Below are positions 8,094 through 64,000 of a stretch of 64,000 nt of DNA, piece after piece. The position numbers and the translations under genes are program-made. The notes beneath the pieces are model-generated. The model searched no databases and had not been told where the DNA came from. It was given only the letters and a program-made list of their open reading frames with translations. Each line of letters starts with the position of its first letter. Position 1 is the first letter of the stretch. Source of the DNA: Octopus vulgaris (taxonomy: Eukaryota); NCBI GenBank assembly GCA_951406725.2, contig OX597817.1, forward strand, positions 172,856,001-172,920,000. Reading direction: 5' to 3'.

Positions 8094-8202
8094 ATTTTCT
8101 TTATCTGTCTGAGTCTTAGGGGTGAGAGTCAATTGTAATATAATGTAGCCCATATAAGTTGATTTTCCTTTTTCAGATAACATAACTTTCATTTCCTCAG
8201 TC
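8094..8202 (-). CDS. MCTP1: MCTP-like gene, coding exon: end of the C2A domain (V-TEEMKVMLSEKGKSTYMGYIILQLTLTPKTQTDKEN)
   Basis: Acceptor ttttttttcag, donor AAT|gtaagt, 109 nt. Phase 2 entry completes the GT+G Val codon from the previous exon. MGxIxLxLTLxPK matches the last C2A strand of MCTP. Confidence 0.9.
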
Positions 8203-8454
8203 CTGAAAAAAAATAAATGGCAGAAAATGAAACTTTAAGATGTTTTTTTTTTGTCGTAAGTTTTAAATAACATGATTTAGATGGGTCAGTATCTATATTA
8301 GATTTTGTTTTAGTATTTTGGTTTTGAAGATTTTTTGTGTTGAAACAGATTTTGATGTAGCCTGGATGGGTCATTATGCCAACAATAAACACATGCACTG
8401 GTTCTATTACACTTCTTTTGCTATTATTAATCGATTAGTTAATATTTAACCATT

Positions 8455-10831
8455 TCAGTGCCACATAAAAAGAACCCATGCCAGTGTCACATGAAAAGCA
8501 CTCATGCTGGTGCCATGTAAAAAGCACTTGTGCCGGTGCCACACAAAAAACATCTGGGCCTGTGCCATGTAAAAAGCACCTGTGCCAGTGCCACACAAAA
8601 ACATCTGGGCCTGTGCCATGTAAAAAGCACTTGTGCCGGTGCCACACAAAAAACATCTGGGCCTGTGCCATGTAAAAAGCACTTGTGCCGGTGCCACACA
8701 AAAACATCTGGGCCTGTGCCATGTAAAAAGCACCTGTGCCAGTGCCACACAAAAAACATCTGGGCCTGTGCCATGTAAAAAGCACTTGTGCCGGTGCCAC
8801 ACAAAAACATCTGGGCCTGTGCCATGTAAAAAGCACCTGTGCCAGTGCCACACAAAAAACATCTGGGCCTGTGCCATGTAAAAAGCACTTGTGCCGGTGC
8901 CACACAAAAAACATCTGGGCCTGTGCCATGTAAAAAGCACTTGTGCCAGTGCCACACAAAAAACATCTGGGCCTGTGCCATGTAAAAAGCACCTGTGCCA
9001 GTGCCACACAAAAAACATCTGGGCCTGTGCCATGTAAAAAGCACCTGTGCCAGTGCCACACAAAAAACATCTGGGCCTGTGCCATGTAAAAAGCACTTGT
9101 GCCAGTGCCACACAAAAACATCTGGGCCTGTGCCATGTAAAAAGCACCTGTGCCAGTGCCACACAAAAAACATCTGGGCCTGTGCCATGTAAAAAGCACT
9201 TGTGCCAGTGCCACACAAAAAACATCTGGGCCTGTGCCATGTAAAAAGCACCTGTGCCGGTGCCACACAAAAAACATCTGGGCCTGTGCCATGTAAAAAG
9301 CACCTGTGCCAGTGCCACACAAAAAACATCTGGGCCTGTGCCATGTAAAAAGCACCTGTGCCAGTGCCACACAAAAAACATCTGGGCCTGTGCCATGTAA
9401 AAAGCACCTGTGCCGGTGCCACACAAAAAACATCTGGGCCTGTGCCATGTAAAAAGCACTTGTGCCGGTGCCACACAAAAACATCTGGGCCTGTGCCATG
9501 TAAAAAGCACCTGTGCCAGTGCCACACAAAAACATCTGGGCCTGTGCCATGTAAAAAGCACCTGTGCCAGTGCCACACAAAAAACATCTGGGCCTGTGCC
9601 ATGTAAAAAGCACTTGTGCCGGTGCCACACAAAAAACATCTGGGCCTGTGCCATGTAAAAGCACCTGTGCCAGTGCCACACAAAAACATCTGGGCCTGTG
9701 CCATGTAAAAGCACCTGTGCCAGTGCCACACAAAAAACATCTGGGCCTGTGCCATGTAAAAAGCACCTGTGCCGGTGCCACACAAAAACATCTGGGCCTG
9801 TGCCATGTAAAAAGCACTTGTGCCGGTGCCACACAAAAAACATCTGGGCCTGTGCCATGTAAAAAGCACCTGTGCCAGTGCCACACAAAAACATCTGGGC
9901 CTGTGCCATGTAAAAAGCACTTGTGCCGGTGCCACACAAAAAACATCTGGGCCTGTGCCATGTAAAAAGCACCTGTGCCGGTCCCACACAAAAAACATCT
10001 GGGCCTGTGCCATGTAAAAAGCACTTGTGCCAGTGCCACACAAAAAACATCTGGGCCTGTGCCATGTAAAAAGCACCTGTGCCAGTGCCACACAAAAAAC
10101 ATCTGGGCCTGTGCCATGTAAAAAGCACCTGTGCCAGTGCCACACAAAAAACATCTGGGCCTGTGCCATGTAAAAAGCACCTGTGCCGGTGCCACACAAA
10201 AAACATCTGGGCCTGTGCCATGTAAAAAGCACTTGTGCCAGTGCCACACAAAAAACATCTGGGCCTGTGCCATGTAAAAAGCACCTGTGCCAGTGCCACA
10301 CAAAAAACATCTGGGCCTGTGCCATGTAAAAAGCACTTGTGCCAGTGCCACACAAAAAACATCTGGGCCTGTGCCATGTAAAAAGCACCTGTGCCAGTGC
10401 CACACAAAAAACATCTGGGCCTGTGCCATGTAAAAAGCACCTGTGCCAGTGCCACACAAAAAACATCTGGGCCTGTGCCATGTAAAAAGCACTTGTGCCA
10501 CACAAAAAACATCTGGGCCTGTGCCATGTAAAAAGCACTTGTGCCAGTGCCACACAAAAAACATCTGGGCCTGTGCCATGTAAAAAGCACTTGTGCTAGT
10601 GTCATACAAAAGTACACATGCCAGTACCATGTAAGAAGCACCCAATTTACTCTGTAAAGTGGTGGTCATTAAGAAGGACATCCAGCCATATAAATCATGC
10701 CATAACAGACAAACCAGAGCCTGATGTAGCTCTCTGGTTAGCCAGTTCCTGTCAAACATTCTAACCAATACCAACACAGAAAATGGACATTAAATGATGA
10801 TGATGATGATGATGAGATGATGATGATGATG
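8455..10831 (+). mobile_element. RTE-LINE 3'UTR-type element with (GAT)n tail, hosting the minisatellite
   Basis: After the array the sequence continues AAGCACCC...GTGG...TTAAGAAGGACATCCAGCCATA...ATGGACATTAAATGATGATGAT, as at 16610-16787, 21780-21946, 40070-40243 and 54840-55010. Confidence 0.75.
8511..10596 (+). repeat. minisatellite, about 40 copies of a 51-52 bp unit CATCTGGGCCTGTGCCATGTAAAAAGCAC(C/T)TGTGCC(A/G)GTGCCACACAAAAA(A)
   Basis: The head-to-tail array is directly visible. I counted 40 CATCTGGGCC starts between 8551 and 10562. One unit carries a 6-bp deletion (10464-10509). Confidence 0.98.
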
Positions 10832-13040: not shown

Positions 13041-13113
13041 CTGACGTACAATATTGATCGGCAAATGAATAAGCAAATGAAACAAAGTATTGGATAAGGA
13101 AATTGCAACTTAC

Positions 13114-13336
13114 ACATTAGGTTCCAATGTGGTAAGGTCGATAGTGGCTGACCCCATTGAGTCATCATGCATGGCTCGATCATAGTCAAATACCTTTATA
13201 CTAAGTGGCTTTAAAACATCTTCAACTGGGATTGTAAATTTCTCTTCCCAACGAGGATTAAGGTTTTTATATATTATTCGGCTTTTATGAAGTAGTTTAC
13301 TATCAATTTTGAATTTGACATATGGATCACTTGTTC
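13114..13336 (-). CDS. MCTP1: MCTP-like gene, coding exon: core of the C2A domain (GTSDPYVKFKIDSKLLHKSRIIYKNLNPRWEEKF...KVFDYDRAMHDDSMGSATIDLTTLEPNV)
   Basis: Acceptor ctgttttcag, donor GT|gtaagt, 223 nt (phase 1 in, phase 2 out). The motifs SDPYVKFK, KNLNPxWEE and KVFDYDxxxxDDxMG match MCTP C2A, and the Ca2+-coordinating aspartates are retained. The MCTP1 versus MCTP2 label is nominal for an invertebrate. Confidence 0.93.
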
Positions 13337-13473
13337 CTGAAAACAGAAAATATTGTTGCTCTATTATTATGTTTAATGTAAATTCAATAAAAAAAAATTT
13401 TTTTATATTTTTTATTAAAATATAAATCAATAATGAAATAACAAACAATAATTCTATATCTTCAGCACGCTGA

Positions 13474-17250: not shown

Positions 17251-17326
<76 letters not shown>

Positions 17327-17381
17327 CATTATTGGTGAATTGAAGAAATGGAGCTGAACGCAGATTGAACAGAAATCGTTT

Positions 17382-17475
17382 TATTTCATTCTACACGTGT
17401 TTCGAAAGGCACAAATTACCAAAATCCGATTGAATAATGGGACCATATTGTGTCTTTCTCTTCAGGAAGAAAATA
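17382..17475 (-). ncRNA. mirror-image type I hammerhead ribozyme motif on the MCTP sense strand
   Basis: Reverse complement of 17508-17601. The two arm differences fall in distal stem II/loop, and the core is intact. Confidence 0.83.
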
Positions 17476-17507
17476 GGAAATCCGTTGGAAAAACAAAACG
17501 GATTTCC

Positions 17508-17601
17508 TATTTTCTTCCTGAAGAGAAAGACACAATATGGTCCCATTATTCCATCGGATTTTGGGAATTTGTGCCTTTCGAAACACGTGTAGAATGAAAT
17601 A
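17508..17601 (+). ncRNA. type I hammerhead ribozyme motif (minimal palindromic stem III, Penelope type)
   Basis: Stem I TATTTTCTTC/GAATGAAATA. Core CTGAAGA at 17518-17524. Stem II GAAAGACACAA/TTGTGCCTTTC. GAAA at 17580-17583. Stem III is the palindrome ACACGTGT. Predicted cleavage after GUA at 17591. Confidence 0.85.
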
Positions 17602-17808
17602 AAACGATTTCTGTTCAATCTGCGTTCAGCTCCATTTCTTCAATTCACCAATAATGTTCTAATTTCAATTATCCGCACCAACGCACGGTTGCAACCCCAT
17701 ATGGTTGTACCTCCAACCGTGCTGTTTTACTGCTGTGATTTTTGCTACTAAGGTATCGGTTAAACTTTTGATTAATCTACTACAAGATTATTCATCTTTC
17801 TATTTCAC

Positions 17809-17863
<55 letters not shown>

Positions 17864-33643: not shown

Positions 33644-34342
33644 GACGCACAAGTACCTACACACACATATACTCACAAGGCAGTTATGTTCCACCTACCA
33701 AATCTACTAACAAGGCTTTGGTTGGCCCGGGGCTATAGCAGAAGACACTTGCCCAAAGTGTCACGCAGTGGGACTGAACCCGAAACCATGTAGTTGGGAA
33801 ACAAGCTTCCTAACCACACAGCCATGCCCGTATGAATGTTAAAGGGTTAAACTAAGAGGGGGTATTTTGATTCAAAATTTTACCCCATTTATTTTGTGTA
33901 TGTACATATTAACATATAAAAAGATCTAAAATATTTAATTTTTTTTTCTAAACTGAAAATGAATTAAAACTTGAAATGAAAAAAAAAAAAGCGTTTATGT
34001 GAATACCTTTTTTTTTTTCATAAATTCAGCAGCAGTTCATGTTGAAATTTCAAATTTAATGGTTGAAATTTAAAAAAATTTATTCACTGATAACCCACCA
34101 TTAGCAAACATCTGACATTATTTGTTTTGTTTCCATAAAAATTCAAACATCTTAGATGTTATCAATTTGAAATTTCCTCAGTTCAAAAGAACACACGAAT
34201 ATATGTACTTTACTGCATCAGACAATTGTTTGTTAATAAGAATGACAGCTATCTGCGAGTCTCACAATTGTCGATTCCCCTAATGAACATAGCTAAATGT
34301 AAAAGAAAAAACTAAATAAAAAATTTCAACGGAAAGACTTAC

Positions 34343-34448
34343 CACAACTATCACGTATCACAAGATCTCTTCCTTCTTGAAGTAGTACAACAAGTTGAAA
34401 GAATGGATGCTGCAAAAGGTTGCTTTGATGTTGTCGAGATGAACCTTC
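34343..34448 (-). CDS. MCTP1: MCTP-like gene, coding exon: linker plus start of the C2A domain (EGSSRQHQSNLLQHPFFQLVVLLQEGRDLVIRDSC-G)
   Basis: Minus-strand acceptor ctgtttttccag and donor G|gtaagt. The exon is 106 nt and ends in phase 1, matching the phase-1 start of exon 13336. It gives ...GRDLVIRDSCG|TSDPYVKF, the typical MCTP C2A strand 1/loop 1. The ORF track misses it. Confidence 0.9.
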
Positions 34449-34820
34449 CTGGAAAAACAGATAGAATAAATCTGATTATAATAATGGCTTCTTATGTTGG
34501 CATGGAGCCTGGAGGGAGGAAACGAGAGAATTCTGACAATAATGTATTTCCTAATAGTGAAATGGTTCTAATTGAAGAAGAAATTGGGCAGGAGTTAAAT
34601 TTGTTTTCCAAAAATAACAATTTCTTTGTACAAAAACACAGATGTTCAATTTAGTTTCTAGATTTAAGAAGTGATAACAAAAATTGTTATATTTTGATTG
34701 TGTGTGTGTATGTGTGTGTGTTTGTGCTTATGTGTGTGTGTTTGTGCTTATGTGTGTGTGTTTGTGCTTATGTGTGTGTGCACACTTGCATAGGTTGTGT
34801 AATTCGGCAAGTTTGGATAA

Positions 34821-55931: not shown

Positions 55932-59060
<3,129 letters not shown>

Positions 59061-59085
59061 ATATATATATGTATATATATATATG

Positions 59086-59161
<76 letters not shown>

Positions 59162-59162
<1 letters not shown>

Positions 59163-59535
59163 TAATGTTTGTTTTTATGTTGTTATGAAAAAAATATTTA
59201 TGGATTTGTTTTGCAAGGTTCATGATGCGAAATTGTGTGTTGAATCGGATACTGTTACATTTGGGATTGGTCATTTGTTTTTGCTTTTTGCCAAATAACC
59301 ACACACAGTATTTACTCATTTTTCACTTCAGATTTATTATTATTCTTATTTTTGTGTGTTTTGCGTGAAATCTGAAGGAGAGTTGCTGAAGAGGTCACAG
59401 GATGTGTAATGAAAGATTTCAGACAAGGAACACTAAAATAAGAAAAATAAAGCTTGAAGTGAAAAATGAGTTTATAGTGTGTGTGTGGTTAATTGGCAAA
59501 AACGAAATAAAAGAAGACCATCTCAAATATAATAA
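59162..59535. mobile_element. degenerate Penelope-like foldback next to (TA)n, with eroded hammerhead core
   Basis: Imperfect inverted arms at ~59259-59373 and ~59414-59530. CTGAAGAGGTCACA...TGTG..GAAAGATTTC lies at 59386-59420. Confidence 0.55.
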
Positions 59536-61738: not shown

Positions 61739-62863
61739 AATATGTGTATGTGTTTGTGCAAGTGCAAGTGTGTAAGTGTGTGTGTGCACGTATGTACACA
61801 TTTTGCATATGTATGAGTGTGAGTGTGTGTGGGGGTGTATCCCAGTGCACATCCATCTAAGGTGTATCCTTGGAACGAATAAGCTAGGAATAAGTATAAA
61901 CATTTACATCAACCGGGCCAGGAACAGCTAGAAATCTAAATGAGTCAAGATTTCAATGAGCTTGAACACAGCCAAATGTAAATAAAGTTAGATTTTCAGT
62001 TGGTTGCTATCTTGTCACAATTTATTTAGGATGAGAGATGACTAAGGTTACCTAAAGAACATCTAGAACATGATATTATAGCAACAATAATAATAAATAA
62101 TGTGAAACATGTCTGTACTGCAACGAAATTGCATTCAAGCAGAAAATGAAAAACAATCATTTTTATACCATGTTTTTTTTCTTTTAAAAAAATGTAATTT
62201 AATCAACTTCAGACTTCAGTAAGATTTAATAATTCAATATAAATATGTTTTCTAAATATACATACATACAAATGCACACATATATGTGGAAAGACATATG
62301 TGGCAGAAGGCCAAGGAAGACATGGAAAGAATTGCTTGAATCAAAGAGCAAGAAGTTGGGCATCGCAGACAAAACGACTAAGTCTTTGGAGAAGACAGAT
62401 GATATGCTGCAGTGCAGATTTATCCAATTCTGGCCGGCAGAGATAAAAATCTTAGAGATTATGTATTGCATAGAATATCATAAGTGGTCACACGATACAA
62501 GCATATCTGTATGTTAATAATATACAACGTTTATACGTTGATTCTTATAATCTCAATTGCTGCTGCTACTACTACTACTACGTGTGTGTATATCCATAAT
62601 CATAACCTACACTTTGCCATGCTTGCATAGGTCAAATGGAATTTGCTGAGGCAGATTTTCAAAGGTCAGATGTCATTCCTGTTGTAAGCCCTCGTCTATT
62701 TCCGAACAGGGGAATGTTTCCTAAGGGCCAGATATATTTTCTGCAGAATATTGGTAATGCAGTACACTGCTTTTTATGATGGTGACATTCATTTTACAAC
62801 CACTGAGTGATATCAAGAAAAGGGGACAGACACAAACACCTCCCCATCCTCCCGCCATTCATA

Positions 62864-62898
<35 letters not shown>

Positions 62899-62899
62899 T

Positions 62900-63259
62900 T
62901 AAGTAGGTGAATGAACTATCCTAGTATGCATAATTCGGTTAACCGATACCTGGGTAGCAAATTCACGTCAGAAAACACGGTTGAAGCTACATGCCAAGGG
63001 TAGAAATCCCATGTTCTCGTGTGGAAATTTGTGTGTTTTTTTTATCGATGAATAAATGAAAGAATGGAGTCGAACGACGATTTTAACAAAATTCCTTTAC
63101 TCTCGACATATGTTTCGAAGACTGCATATTCTTAATTCCGAAGGAATAAAGGGTGCATTATGCCGCCTTCTCATCAGGAAAGACAAGGAACCTATGTCAG
63201 CATCATGACGAACAAAAACTTTTAGATGACTGCCCACATGGTGTCCACAGTGATAATCT
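62900..63259 (-). mobile_element. Penelope-like pLTR fragment inserted in (TA)n
   Basis: (TA)n at 62861-62897 and 63260-63281. The minus-strand tail GTAGCTTCAACCGTG...TTTGCTACCCAGGTATCGGTTAA matches 17707-17763 (GTACCTCCAACCGTG...TTTGCTACTAAGGTATCGGTTAA). Confidence 0.8.
63094..63188 (-). ncRNA. type I hammerhead ribozyme motif with canonical GUC site
   Basis: On the minus strand: stem I CCTTGTCTTTC/GAGAGTAAAGG, core CTGATGA, stem II GAAGGCGGCATA/TATGCAGTCTTC, GAAA, palindromic stem III ACATATGT, and GUC at 63107-63105. Confidence 0.87.
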
Positions 63260-63620
63260 TATATATATATATATATATATAGTTGAAAAGGGGTTAGGTA
63301 TTCATATACAAACCAAAAGTAAAAACACGGAAGTATGTTTAAAGATACTTCTTATTGTCTTTTAATAGGACAGGATAAGTCTTTTTATGTTTGTTACTTT
63401 AAGCAACTTTTCTAAAAATATTTCTGGTTTTGATGTGTATGTACATCTTATCAAATATTAAAAATTCAAAGTCAAAGATTAGGAAATAAGAACATGTTCT
63501 TAACTACACACAGAATATGAGAACAAACTGTTTTAATTTCCTGACTTTTTCTAATTTCCTAATCTTTGACTTTGAATATTTAATATTTGGTAAGATGGAC
63601 ATATACGTCAAAACCAGTAA

Positions 63621-64000
63621 TCTCTCTCTATATAAACGGCAGTTTGTCTGTGCGTTTTCTGTGTGTCTGTTTTCTCGTACCCTCACTCTGACCACGGCTT
63701 TCAACCGATTCTGATGAAACTTGACACACACATAGCCCAATGTCATAATTCAAAACTAACGCAGCGAAAATTTTGAAAAGTTCCCCCAGTTCTGAAAAAA
63801 TCGATAAATTCGACATGGGGTCGAGAATCAGAAACCCAAACCACAGACCGTCTAGGGGACGCAACTCCACCTTTTTAACTCTCAAAAAAAATTTACCATA
63901 ATTTTTTTTCCATTTTTTTTCTATTTTTTGGCTATAACTCTCTAAAAATGCTTTATAGTTATTTCCCTTACAAACCTGAGCAACGCCGAGCGATACTGCT
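63621..64000 (+). mobile_element. non-autonomous Helitron-like element, cut by the window edge just before the expected terminal AG
   Basis: Starts A|TCTCTCTCTATATAAACGGCAG. The 5' part is homologous to 2728-2460 and the 3' part to 35305-35372. Confidence 0.8.

What the first reader, a model, noticed from the sequence alone, without database searches (positions are those of the whole stretch)
62900..63259. Unmasked canonical hammerhead (CUGAUGA/GAAA/GUC) with covarying stems relative to the 17.5-kb copy
It has the same architecture and a homologous 3' tail as 17497-17810, but the stems differ while still pairing. Stem II is GAAGGCGGCATA/TATGCAGTCTTC versus GAAAGACACAA/TTGTGCCTTTC, and the stem III palindrome is ACATATGT versus ACACGTGT. 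This covariation points to selection on structure in the parent elements. There is no antisense arm here and the ribozyme is on the MCTP strand, so it could cut a transcript if the gene extends this far, which is unknown.
Basis: partly seen in the sequence, partly recalled or inferred. Interest (0 to 1): 0.72.

Follow-up and report, generated by a model that had tools for sequence, protein, structure and literature searches.

The report
Octopus Penelope stump with intronic hammerhead
This is a 358-base leftover of a very common octopus jumping gene (a Penelope-like element) that carries an intact self-cutting RNA motif inside an intron of the MCTP gene, on the strand that is read; the motif is predicted to cut only when two copies pair up, so here it is likely silent, and leftovers of this kind are already known.

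Summary
The hammerhead is real, at the stated place, and lies in a sense intron of MCTP (12 of 15 isoform proteins span it). It is part of a 358-bp piece (63257-62900, minus strand) of a Penelope-like retroelement inserted in (TA)n; a core motif occurs 11,265 times in the genome (control 250). The 17.5-kb copy is a younger subfamily of the same element. Covariation holds for stem II across 24 subfamily copies, but records selection in parent elements, not at this site. Helix III forms only in a dimer and no partner lies in cis, so a cut of MCTP pre-mRNA is unlikely. Hammerheads in (TA)n-targeted Hydra-type elements, including an octopus family, are published, and this scan found the same class before on other DNA. 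Extras: about 45% of copies reaching this 5' end stop there, at a predicted promoter start; none pile up at the cut site; two-armed insertions use two 3' ends about 150 nt apart; and the parent protein lacks the cysteine linker proposed to target TA repeats yet still targets them.

The parts
62900..63257 (-). 358-bp solo pseudo-LTR piece of a Hydra-like Penelope element (subfamily A): 153 nt up to and including the predicted cut, 205 nt after it
   Evidence: 40 scored genome copies 92-100% identical, same 3' end; RT + GIY-YIG ORF upstream in longer copies
63250..63257 (-). 5' end ATTATCAC = predicted transcription start of the parent (TCA+1TT; TATAA about 28 nt and TGACGTCA about 41 nt upstream in the parent, absent from this copy)
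   Evidence: start site is inferred
63178..63191 (-). hammerhead stem I, 5' strand
63171..63177 (-). catalytic core CUGAUGA, unmutated
63117..63170 (-). long stem II (12 pairs, one G.A mismatch) with an inner hairpin
63106..63116 (-). GAAA core and palindrome ACAUAUGU (helix III; 2 bp as a monomer, 8 bp between two molecules)
63105..63105 (-). C17, predicted cut on its 3' side
   Evidence: cleavage untested
63091..63104 (-). hammerhead stem I, 3' strand
63045..63060 (-). position of the family's short 3' end (about +50 to +57 from the cut), used by the second arm of two-armed insertions; internal in this copy
62900..62912 (-). long 3' end (...CACCTACTTA), likely a reverse-transcription start; in tandem copies it lies 53 nt before the ORF's ATG
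63261..63281 (.). (TA)n target remnant on the 5' side
62860..62899 (.). (TA)n target remnant on the 3' side
17322..17812 (.). two-armed inverted insertion of the young subfamily B (long arm +, short arm -); the arm that is sense to MCTP is predicted 97% paired with the other arm
34335..34454 (-). MCTP exon that follows the ribozyme-bearing intron (28,651 nt past the predicted cut)
13113..13340 (-). MCTP first C2-domain exon (fixes the gene's strand)

Best explanation
The feature is a 358-bp solo pseudo-LTR of an endonuclease-bearing Penelope-like retroelement, inserted in a TA repeat in a sense intron of MCTP, likely made by reverse transcription of the element's uncut 5' leader RNA, and its intact type I hammerhead is predicted to need a second copy and so is likely silent here. 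In the parent, tandem units of about 3.6 kb put the pseudo-LTR in front of the next ORF. Transcription likely starts 153 nt before the cut site. The RT-endonuclease protein likely nicks (TA)n and starts copying at one of two internal sites, about 55 or about 205 nt past the cut site; copying from the far site to the RNA's 5' end gives exactly this piece. The hammerhead was kept by selection in the parent, where two copies in a tandem transcript could pair through the 8-nt palindrome and cut out a unit-length RNA. At this site the copy has no promoter of its own upstream and no partner in cis; it is intact because it is recent. Shown: sequence, family, flanks, gene position, end distributions, stem II covariation. 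Inferred: start site, RT starts, dimer need, silence.
For: Family: 40 of 40 scored copies 92-100% identical with one 3' end; 11,265 motif matches against 250 reversed-pattern control. Parent: ORFs of 804-899 codons upstream, best fold matches are telomerase RTs (E 9e-9), look-alike clusters carry GIY-YIG and RVT_1; tandem period 3624-3625 bp. Target: (TA)4+ at the short or long end in 63 of 73 position-ordered copies. Two ends: 27 of 28 two-armed insertions not chosen for their 3' end have one long and one short arm. 5' end: of 292 copies with the boundary word, 64 lack the parent's preceding C (30 of 30 examined have unrelated upstream DNA) and 9 of 30 examined C copies are broken too, about 45% in all; 6 of 7 position-ordered copies that reach -143 stop by -153, 0.61 expected; TATAA at -26 to -28 in 16 of 21 and TGACGTCA in 18 of 21. 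Cut site: only 32 of 2544 copies have a purine before the 3' fragment and 12 of 30 examined are true breaks, about 0.5%, against a background of 0.8% per nt. Dimer: monomer helix III probability 0.014-0.017; double hammerhead -63.8 against -58.2 kcal/mol for two monomers; palindrome centre TA 40, TG 22, CG 4, CA 1 of 67. Literature.
Against: No cleavage, RNA end or expression was measured. The start site rests on motifs and copy ends; microhomology with the inverted arm explains some junctions, and subfamily B shows only a broad cluster of 5' ends (10 of 30 long arms between -149 and -182) with many longer copies. The cofold minimum (-65.6) is slightly below the double hammerhead (-63.8). The monomer's active fold costs only about 3 kcal/mol over the minimum, and axolotl type I monomers with a short helix III still cleaved 6-22% in an hour (PMC7229834 passage), so slow cleavage is possible. 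Tertiary loop contacts were not assessed. Neutrality of this insertion was not tested in other individuals or species.
Confidence: 0.85

Rival explanations
1. Same origin, but the solo ribozyme does cut MCTP pre-mRNA at a meaningful rate (as a slow monomer, or completed in trans by family RNA or helped by the element's protein) and lowers or tunes MCTP output.
For: Sense and intronic for 12 of 15 isoform proteins; core unmutated; no antisense arm; 28.7 kb must be transcribed before the next exon; thousands of copies could supply a partner; the Anolis PLE hammerhead cleaves with its protein; the CPEB3 intronic ribozyme modulates its mRNA (passages).
Against: Helix III barely forms as a monomer; single metazoan PLE motifs gave no detectable cleavage; no same-family unmasked partner in 183 kb; an intact core is expected in a copy 97% identical to its nearest relative; such motifs are common in octopus introns (three more of other families in this gene).
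Confidence: 0.08
2. The 358-bp piece is an ordinary random 5' truncation of cDNA begun in the downstream pseudo-LTR, and the shared 5' end reflects an RT pause or microhomology, not a transcription start.
For: Many boundary copies are inversion junctions with GAT or CATTAT microhomology; subfamily B has widely spread 5' ends; 5' truncation is the rule in PLEs.
Against: Solo copies in (TA)n break at the same base (L193, L210, L213); excess over background P = 3e-6; TATA and initiator-like words sit at the right spacing.
Confidence: 0.15
3. It is a self-standing non-autonomous retrozyme or SINE-like unit that spreads as a small circular RNA.
For: Fixed length of about 358 bp in many copies, no ORF, type I hammerhead; retrozyme monomers are 170-400 nt and related to pseudo-LTRs.
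Against: No head-to-tail arrays of the short unit were seen in the loci held; the sequence runs on into the coding element upstream and into the ORF leader downstream; the ends are not permuted around the cut.
Confidence: 0.03

Closest known systems
Hydra clade of EN+ Penelope-like elements, incl. Hydra-1_Obim of Octopus bimaculoides (Craig et al. 2021, PMC8557442; section 11 and supplement parts read)
   Same: C-terminal GIY-YIG, DKT motif, no CCHH cysteine pair, CxxC and CxH around the conserved E and N, (TA)n insertion, type I hammerhead with palindromic short helix III near the 3' end, inverted 5'-truncated arms.
   Different: Different family from Hydra-1_Obim (by eye against the supplement). 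RWL instead of RWK; CxCX5C linker absent in 4 of 4 ORFs (79 of 85 homologues and Hydra-1_Obim have it) and replaced by a 145-170 aa disordered N/S-rich linker; unit 3.6 kb instead of under 3 kb; stem II of 12 pairs plus an inner hairpin instead of 3-7 pairs.
Type I hammerheads in PLE pseudo-LTRs (Cervera and de la Pena 2014, PMC4209133; parts 1-2 of 4 read)
   Same: Core boxes, G10.1-C11.1, 1-2 bp helix III with palindromic loop, mostly solo copies from truncated PLEs, families with compensatory changes, predicted dimer action.
   Different: [quoted passage not shown]
Poseidon PAc of Anolis (Frangieh et al. 2024, PMC11167929; main text read)
   Same: Two internal RT starts that define two 3' ends; AT-rich targets; uncut RNA as template; no ends at the cut site.
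   Different: Ends about 150 nt apart rather than 30-40; both lie before the ATG, and the hammerhead is about 260 nt upstream of the ORF rather than overlapping it; evidence here is genomic only.
Metazoan non-LTR retrozymes (PMC7229834 passages; bioRxiv 10.64898/2026.07.22.740005 part 1 of 5)
   Same: Short non-coding unit with a type I hammerhead, related to pseudo-LTRs.
   Different: Not in tandem short repeats; continuous with a coding element.
CPEB3 intronic ribozyme (PMC10919898 passages)
   Same: Self-cleaving motif on the sense strand of an intron, kilobases before the next exon.
   Different: HDV-like, active as a monomer with measured half-life and host effect; here a recent repeat copy with no such evidence.

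Membership tests
Type I hammerhead ribozyme | Core CUGANGA / GAAA / UH | tested here: met
   CUGAUGA, GAAA, GUC at 63177-63105
Type I hammerhead ribozyme | Three helices, open end in helix I | tested here: met
   Stems I and II fold; helix III 2 bp as monomer, 8 bp as dimer
Type I hammerhead ribozyme | Covariation in the stems | tested here: met
   Stem II: 7 of 12 pairs change on both sides; 0-23 of 1000 simulations reach the pairing, 0-16 the double changes. Stem I double changes and the dimer pair are not significant alone
Type I hammerhead ribozyme | Self-cleavage after H17 | not testable with these tools
   Needs an in vitro assay
Type I hammerhead ribozyme | Match to an Rfam hammerhead model | tested here: not met
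   No hit at gathering score or E up to 10; likely because of the 54-nt stem II; a library match, not a biochemical criterion
EN+ Penelope-like element | Telomerase-like RT in a single ORF | tested here: met
   Model pLDDT 79.7; top five fold matches are TERTs; Pfam and PDB sequence searches blank
EN+ Penelope-like element | C-terminal GIY-YIG endonuclease | tested here: met
   VYQ...YVG/YIG, R, H, E, N aligned with homologues; GIY-YIG in look-alike clusters at 26-50% of members
EN+ Penelope-like element | Pseudo-LTR with hammerhead; tandem and inverted insertions | tested here: met
EN+ Penelope-like element | Optional 30-40 bp tail at one end | tested here: inconclusive
   Two ends exist but are about 150 nt apart
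Hydra clade | DKT motif | tested here: met
   Both ORFs that include the region
Hydra clade | No CCHH motif; CxxC and CxH around E and N | tested here: met
   One C inside the GIY-YIG core; CNLCVSE and CPH
Hydra clade | RWK motif | tested here: not met
   RWL in both ORFs; RWK/R in 79 of 85 homologues
Hydra clade | CxCX5C linker | tested here: not met
   0 of 4 ORFs, none in other frames of 3 checked; so filed as Hydra-like, not as a plain member
Hydra clade | (TA)n insertion | tested here: met
   63 of 73
Hydra clade | Placement in the RT tree with named Hydra families | not tested
   Reference sequences were seen only as supplement text; nearest database homologues (29-42% identical) carry the Hydra motifs
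Non-LTR retrozyme | Tandem short units each with a hammerhead, no coding parent attached | tested here: not met
   Solo or two-armed copies continuous with the coding element

The most novel reading that the evidence does not exclude
Solo, sense, intronic copies such as this one are half-ribozymes that are switched on in trans: when the still-active element is expressed, its RNA (through the 8-nt palindrome and stem I) or its protein completes the double hammerhead and cuts host pre-mRNAs such as MCTP, so that a retroelement gates the processing of many octopus genes.
Probability: 0.06. Interest if true: 0.75.

Novelty: new variant of a known kind. Interest (0 to 1): 0.3.

Why it matters
As a site it matters little: one of about ten thousand similar motifs. 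As a family it offers tests of open points in Penelope biology. (1) The cysteine linker was proposed to direct (TA)n targeting; this lineage lacks it and still targets (TA)n, so targeting likely lies elsewhere. (2) Copy ends mark a predicted start, two RT starts used one per arm, and no ends at the cut, which extends the Anolis in vitro result to thousands of genomic events and places the hammerhead in the 5' leader, where a cut would remove the cap. (3) Subfamily B has many open 899-codon frames with identical endonuclease ends, a ready source for biochemistry. If sense intronic copies could be triggered in trans, it would link retroelement activity to host pre-mRNA processing.

Tried and rejected
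Rfam: no hammerhead match. Pfam and PDB sequence searches of the ORF: blank. Sequencing runs: no RNA holder listed; four contig sets laid on the site cover only the repeats and cannot show ends, strand or an empty site; reads over the parent promoter could not be examined, so start and cut ends in RNA remain open. Cap-templated G: the window copy has a G before its 5' end, but G is 23 of 64 and most of the 11 examined are explained by the inverted arm; rejected as weak. Counting pair-preserving changes on internal versus terminal branches could not be done; a forward simulation from observed copies was used. Stem III TA/CG as stand-alone proof of covariation: rejected. Heterodimer with the 17.5-kb arm: rejected (that arm is predicted 97% paired, palindromes and stem I differ, an exon and 45 kb lie between). 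I first misread the MCTP strand as plus; searches corrected it. One search's parent/broken labels had an off-by-one error, corrected; one search's pair counts held duplicates, corrected. Orientation bias of copies in introns could not be tested without an annotation. No paper on this family was found in searches; subscription journals and Repbase/Dfam were not searched, and the bioRxiv supplements were not seen.

Full report
OBSERVATION. On the minus strand the window reads stem I 5' (63191-63178), CTGATGA (63177-63171), a 54-nt stem II domain (63170-63117), GAAA, ACATATGT (63113-63106), C63105 and stem I 3' (63104-63091). The unit runs from 63257 to 62900 between two (TA)n tracts. The 17.5-kb copy has CTGAAGA and GUA and an inverted arm. 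A type I descriptor finds only these three motifs in the window, and 0-1 in each of 10 shuffles of 183 kb. The ribozyme strand folds with z = -2.47, the other strand with -0.35. Rfam has no match.

WHAT IT BELONGS TO. The host is an Octopus (an MCTP exon is 99% identical to a protein labelled Octopus sinensis). The 360-bp query has 3626 candidates in G000; all 40 scored are 92-100% identical and end at the same base before (TA)n. The 17.5-kb copy has 1432 candidates, the 40 scored 99-100% identical. The 16-nt core pattern occurs 11,265 times against 250 for the reversed pattern; 67 of 86 distinct position-ordered hits that I fetched are of this family (hits with the common subfamily B word beyond the first 30 loci were mostly not fetched). 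Longer copies continue upstream into one ORF (899 codons in subfamily B, an 804-codon open stretch in subfamily A). A model of the B protein (80-sequence alignment, pLDDT 79.7) matches telomerase RTs best, and look-alike clusters carry GIY-YIG and RVT_1 in a share of members. B forms tandems with a period of 3624-3625 bp and is young: 150 of 150 scored endonuclease ends are 98-100% identical, many in 899-codon frames. So both window copies are pseudo-LTR pieces of two subfamilies of one Penelope-like element.

COVARIATION. I collected 93 distinct complete motifs (193 occurrences, 26 clusters at 9%) and hand-picked 24 real copies across clusters, leaving out those with chimeric 5' ends. 85.5% of 854 cells pair; 52 cells change on both sides against 24.8 in shuffles (0 of 500); slid controls pair at 37-50%. 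RNAalifold independently recovers stem II only. Because shuffles ignore kinship I simulated independent sites on the tree, starting from three observed copies at two rate scales. Stem II: 91.6% paired against 63-81% (0-23 of 1000 reach it), 24 double-change cells against 5-9 (0-16 of 1000). All 29 pairs outside the search motif: 0-12 and 0-16 of 1000. Stem I double changes (21-265 of 1000), the inner hairpin and the palindrome centre (35-173 of 1000) are not significant alone. The palindrome centre is TA 40, TG 22, CG 4, CA 1 of 67: the wobble-compatible form spread and the mismatch did not, which fits a dimer, but these are few independent events. The structure was drawn from the window copy, which favours it in the slid control. 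The signal concerns parent lineages; it says nothing about this insertion.

THE HOST GENE. MCTP is on the minus strand. Mapping 15 of the 19 cluster proteins on the window plus 119 kb beyond it gives exons at 140130, 137749, 113534 and 76232 (window numbering continued) that splice to the exon at 34454. 12 of 15 span the site, two are short models ending upstream, one gave no match. The ribozyme is therefore intronic and sense, 28,651 nt before the next exon.

WOULD IT CUT? As a monomer helix III has two pairs with probabilities 0.014 and 0.017; the double hammerhead scores -63.8 kcal/mol against -58.2 for two monomers and -65.6 for the cofold minimum. In the only other same-family sense motif in 183 kb, the 17.5-kb arm, 97% of bases are predicted paired with the antisense arm. 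Cervera and de la Pena report no detectable cleavage of a single metazoan PLE motif and low activity of dimers; Frangieh et al. report no cleavage without the protein and uncut RNA as the main template. Against this, axolotl monomers cleaved 6-22% in an hour. No RNA data bear on the site.

HOW THE PIECE WAS MADE. Copies have two 3' ends, about +55 and +205 to +210 from the cut in A, about +62 to +70 and +219 in B, and (TA)4+ follows one of them in 63 of 73 position-ordered copies. Two-armed insertions carry one of each in 27 of 28 cases not chosen for their 3' end and 26 of 26 that were. In tandems the long end lies 53 (A) or 48 (B) nt before the ATG. The 5' end of the window copy is shared. 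Of 292 copies with the boundary word, 64 lack the preceding C and 228 keep it; 30 of 30 and 9 of 30 examined are broken there, about 45% overall. In the position-ordered sample (20 ends after removing one edge and one gap case) 6 of 7 copies reaching -143 stop by -153, 0.61 expected. Upstream in the parent lie TATAA at -26 to -28 (16 of 21) and TGACGTCA (18 of 21), and the boundary reads TCA+1TT (promoter consensus recalled). D. virilis Penelope also starts inside its pseudo-LTR, from a TATA-less promoter (passages). At the cut site there is no pile-up: 32 of 2544 copies have a purine before the 3' fragment and 12 of 30 examined are breaks. The simplest reading is cDNA of an uncut leader from the far RT start to the RNA's 5' end. 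Subfamily B shows a broader cluster and many long copies, and microhomology explains some junctions, so this step is likely, not shown.

COMPARISON. Craig et al. define the Hydra clade and list Hydra-1_Obim with a hammerhead and (TA)n preference. The octopus ORFs have DKT, CxxC and CxH and lack CCHH, but have RWL and no CxCX5C linker (0 of 4; 79 of 85 endonuclease-bearing homologues among 120 have it, as does Hydra-1_Obim). A 145-170 aa linker (median 53 in 64 homologues) takes its place and is predicted disordered. I therefore file it as an EN+ PLE, Hydra-like variant. Earlier notes of this scan reached the same class in this and other octopus genomes, and one noted the stop at the predicted start; none mentioned the linker loss. 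I had reached these readings before those look-ups, and they are unchecked AI notes.

VERDICT. Real, ordinary as a site, with a few testable family-level features. Interest 0.3.

Noticed in passing
window 56475-59174 (-): Uninterrupted 899-codon frame that reads like the RT ORF of a LINE-type retrotransposon (label from recalled motifs), in the same MCTP intron and sense to it.
   Followed up: no
L183:655 (+), L184:5539 (-), L185:4564 (-): Three further hammerhead-like motifs of other families in upstream MCTP introns; the last is weak.
   Followed up: partly
G000:C4 beyond the window (L063-L190): MCTP has at least four alternative 5' coding starts spread over 64 kb, all splicing to the exon at 34454.
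   Followed up: partly
L062:1920-3860: An inverted pair of a different Penelope-like endonuclease fragment, with cysteine linker, directly beside the subfamily B tandem.
   Followed up: no
L007:1900-2500 and L169: Subfamily B insertions sit in the (TA)n tail of older copies of the same lineage: elements pile up in shared microsatellites.
   Followed up: no
L113:1500 and L126:1500: Another family with palindrome ACAGCTGT and a short stem II, core apparently altered.
   Followed up: no
window 63620-63900 and about 2216-2686: A very high-copy repeat next to the insertion, also present near the start of the window.
   Followed up: no
window 8435-10789: A 2.3-kb tandem minisatellite that opens long frames on the minus strand, just upstream of the MCTP exon at 8201.
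   Followed up: no
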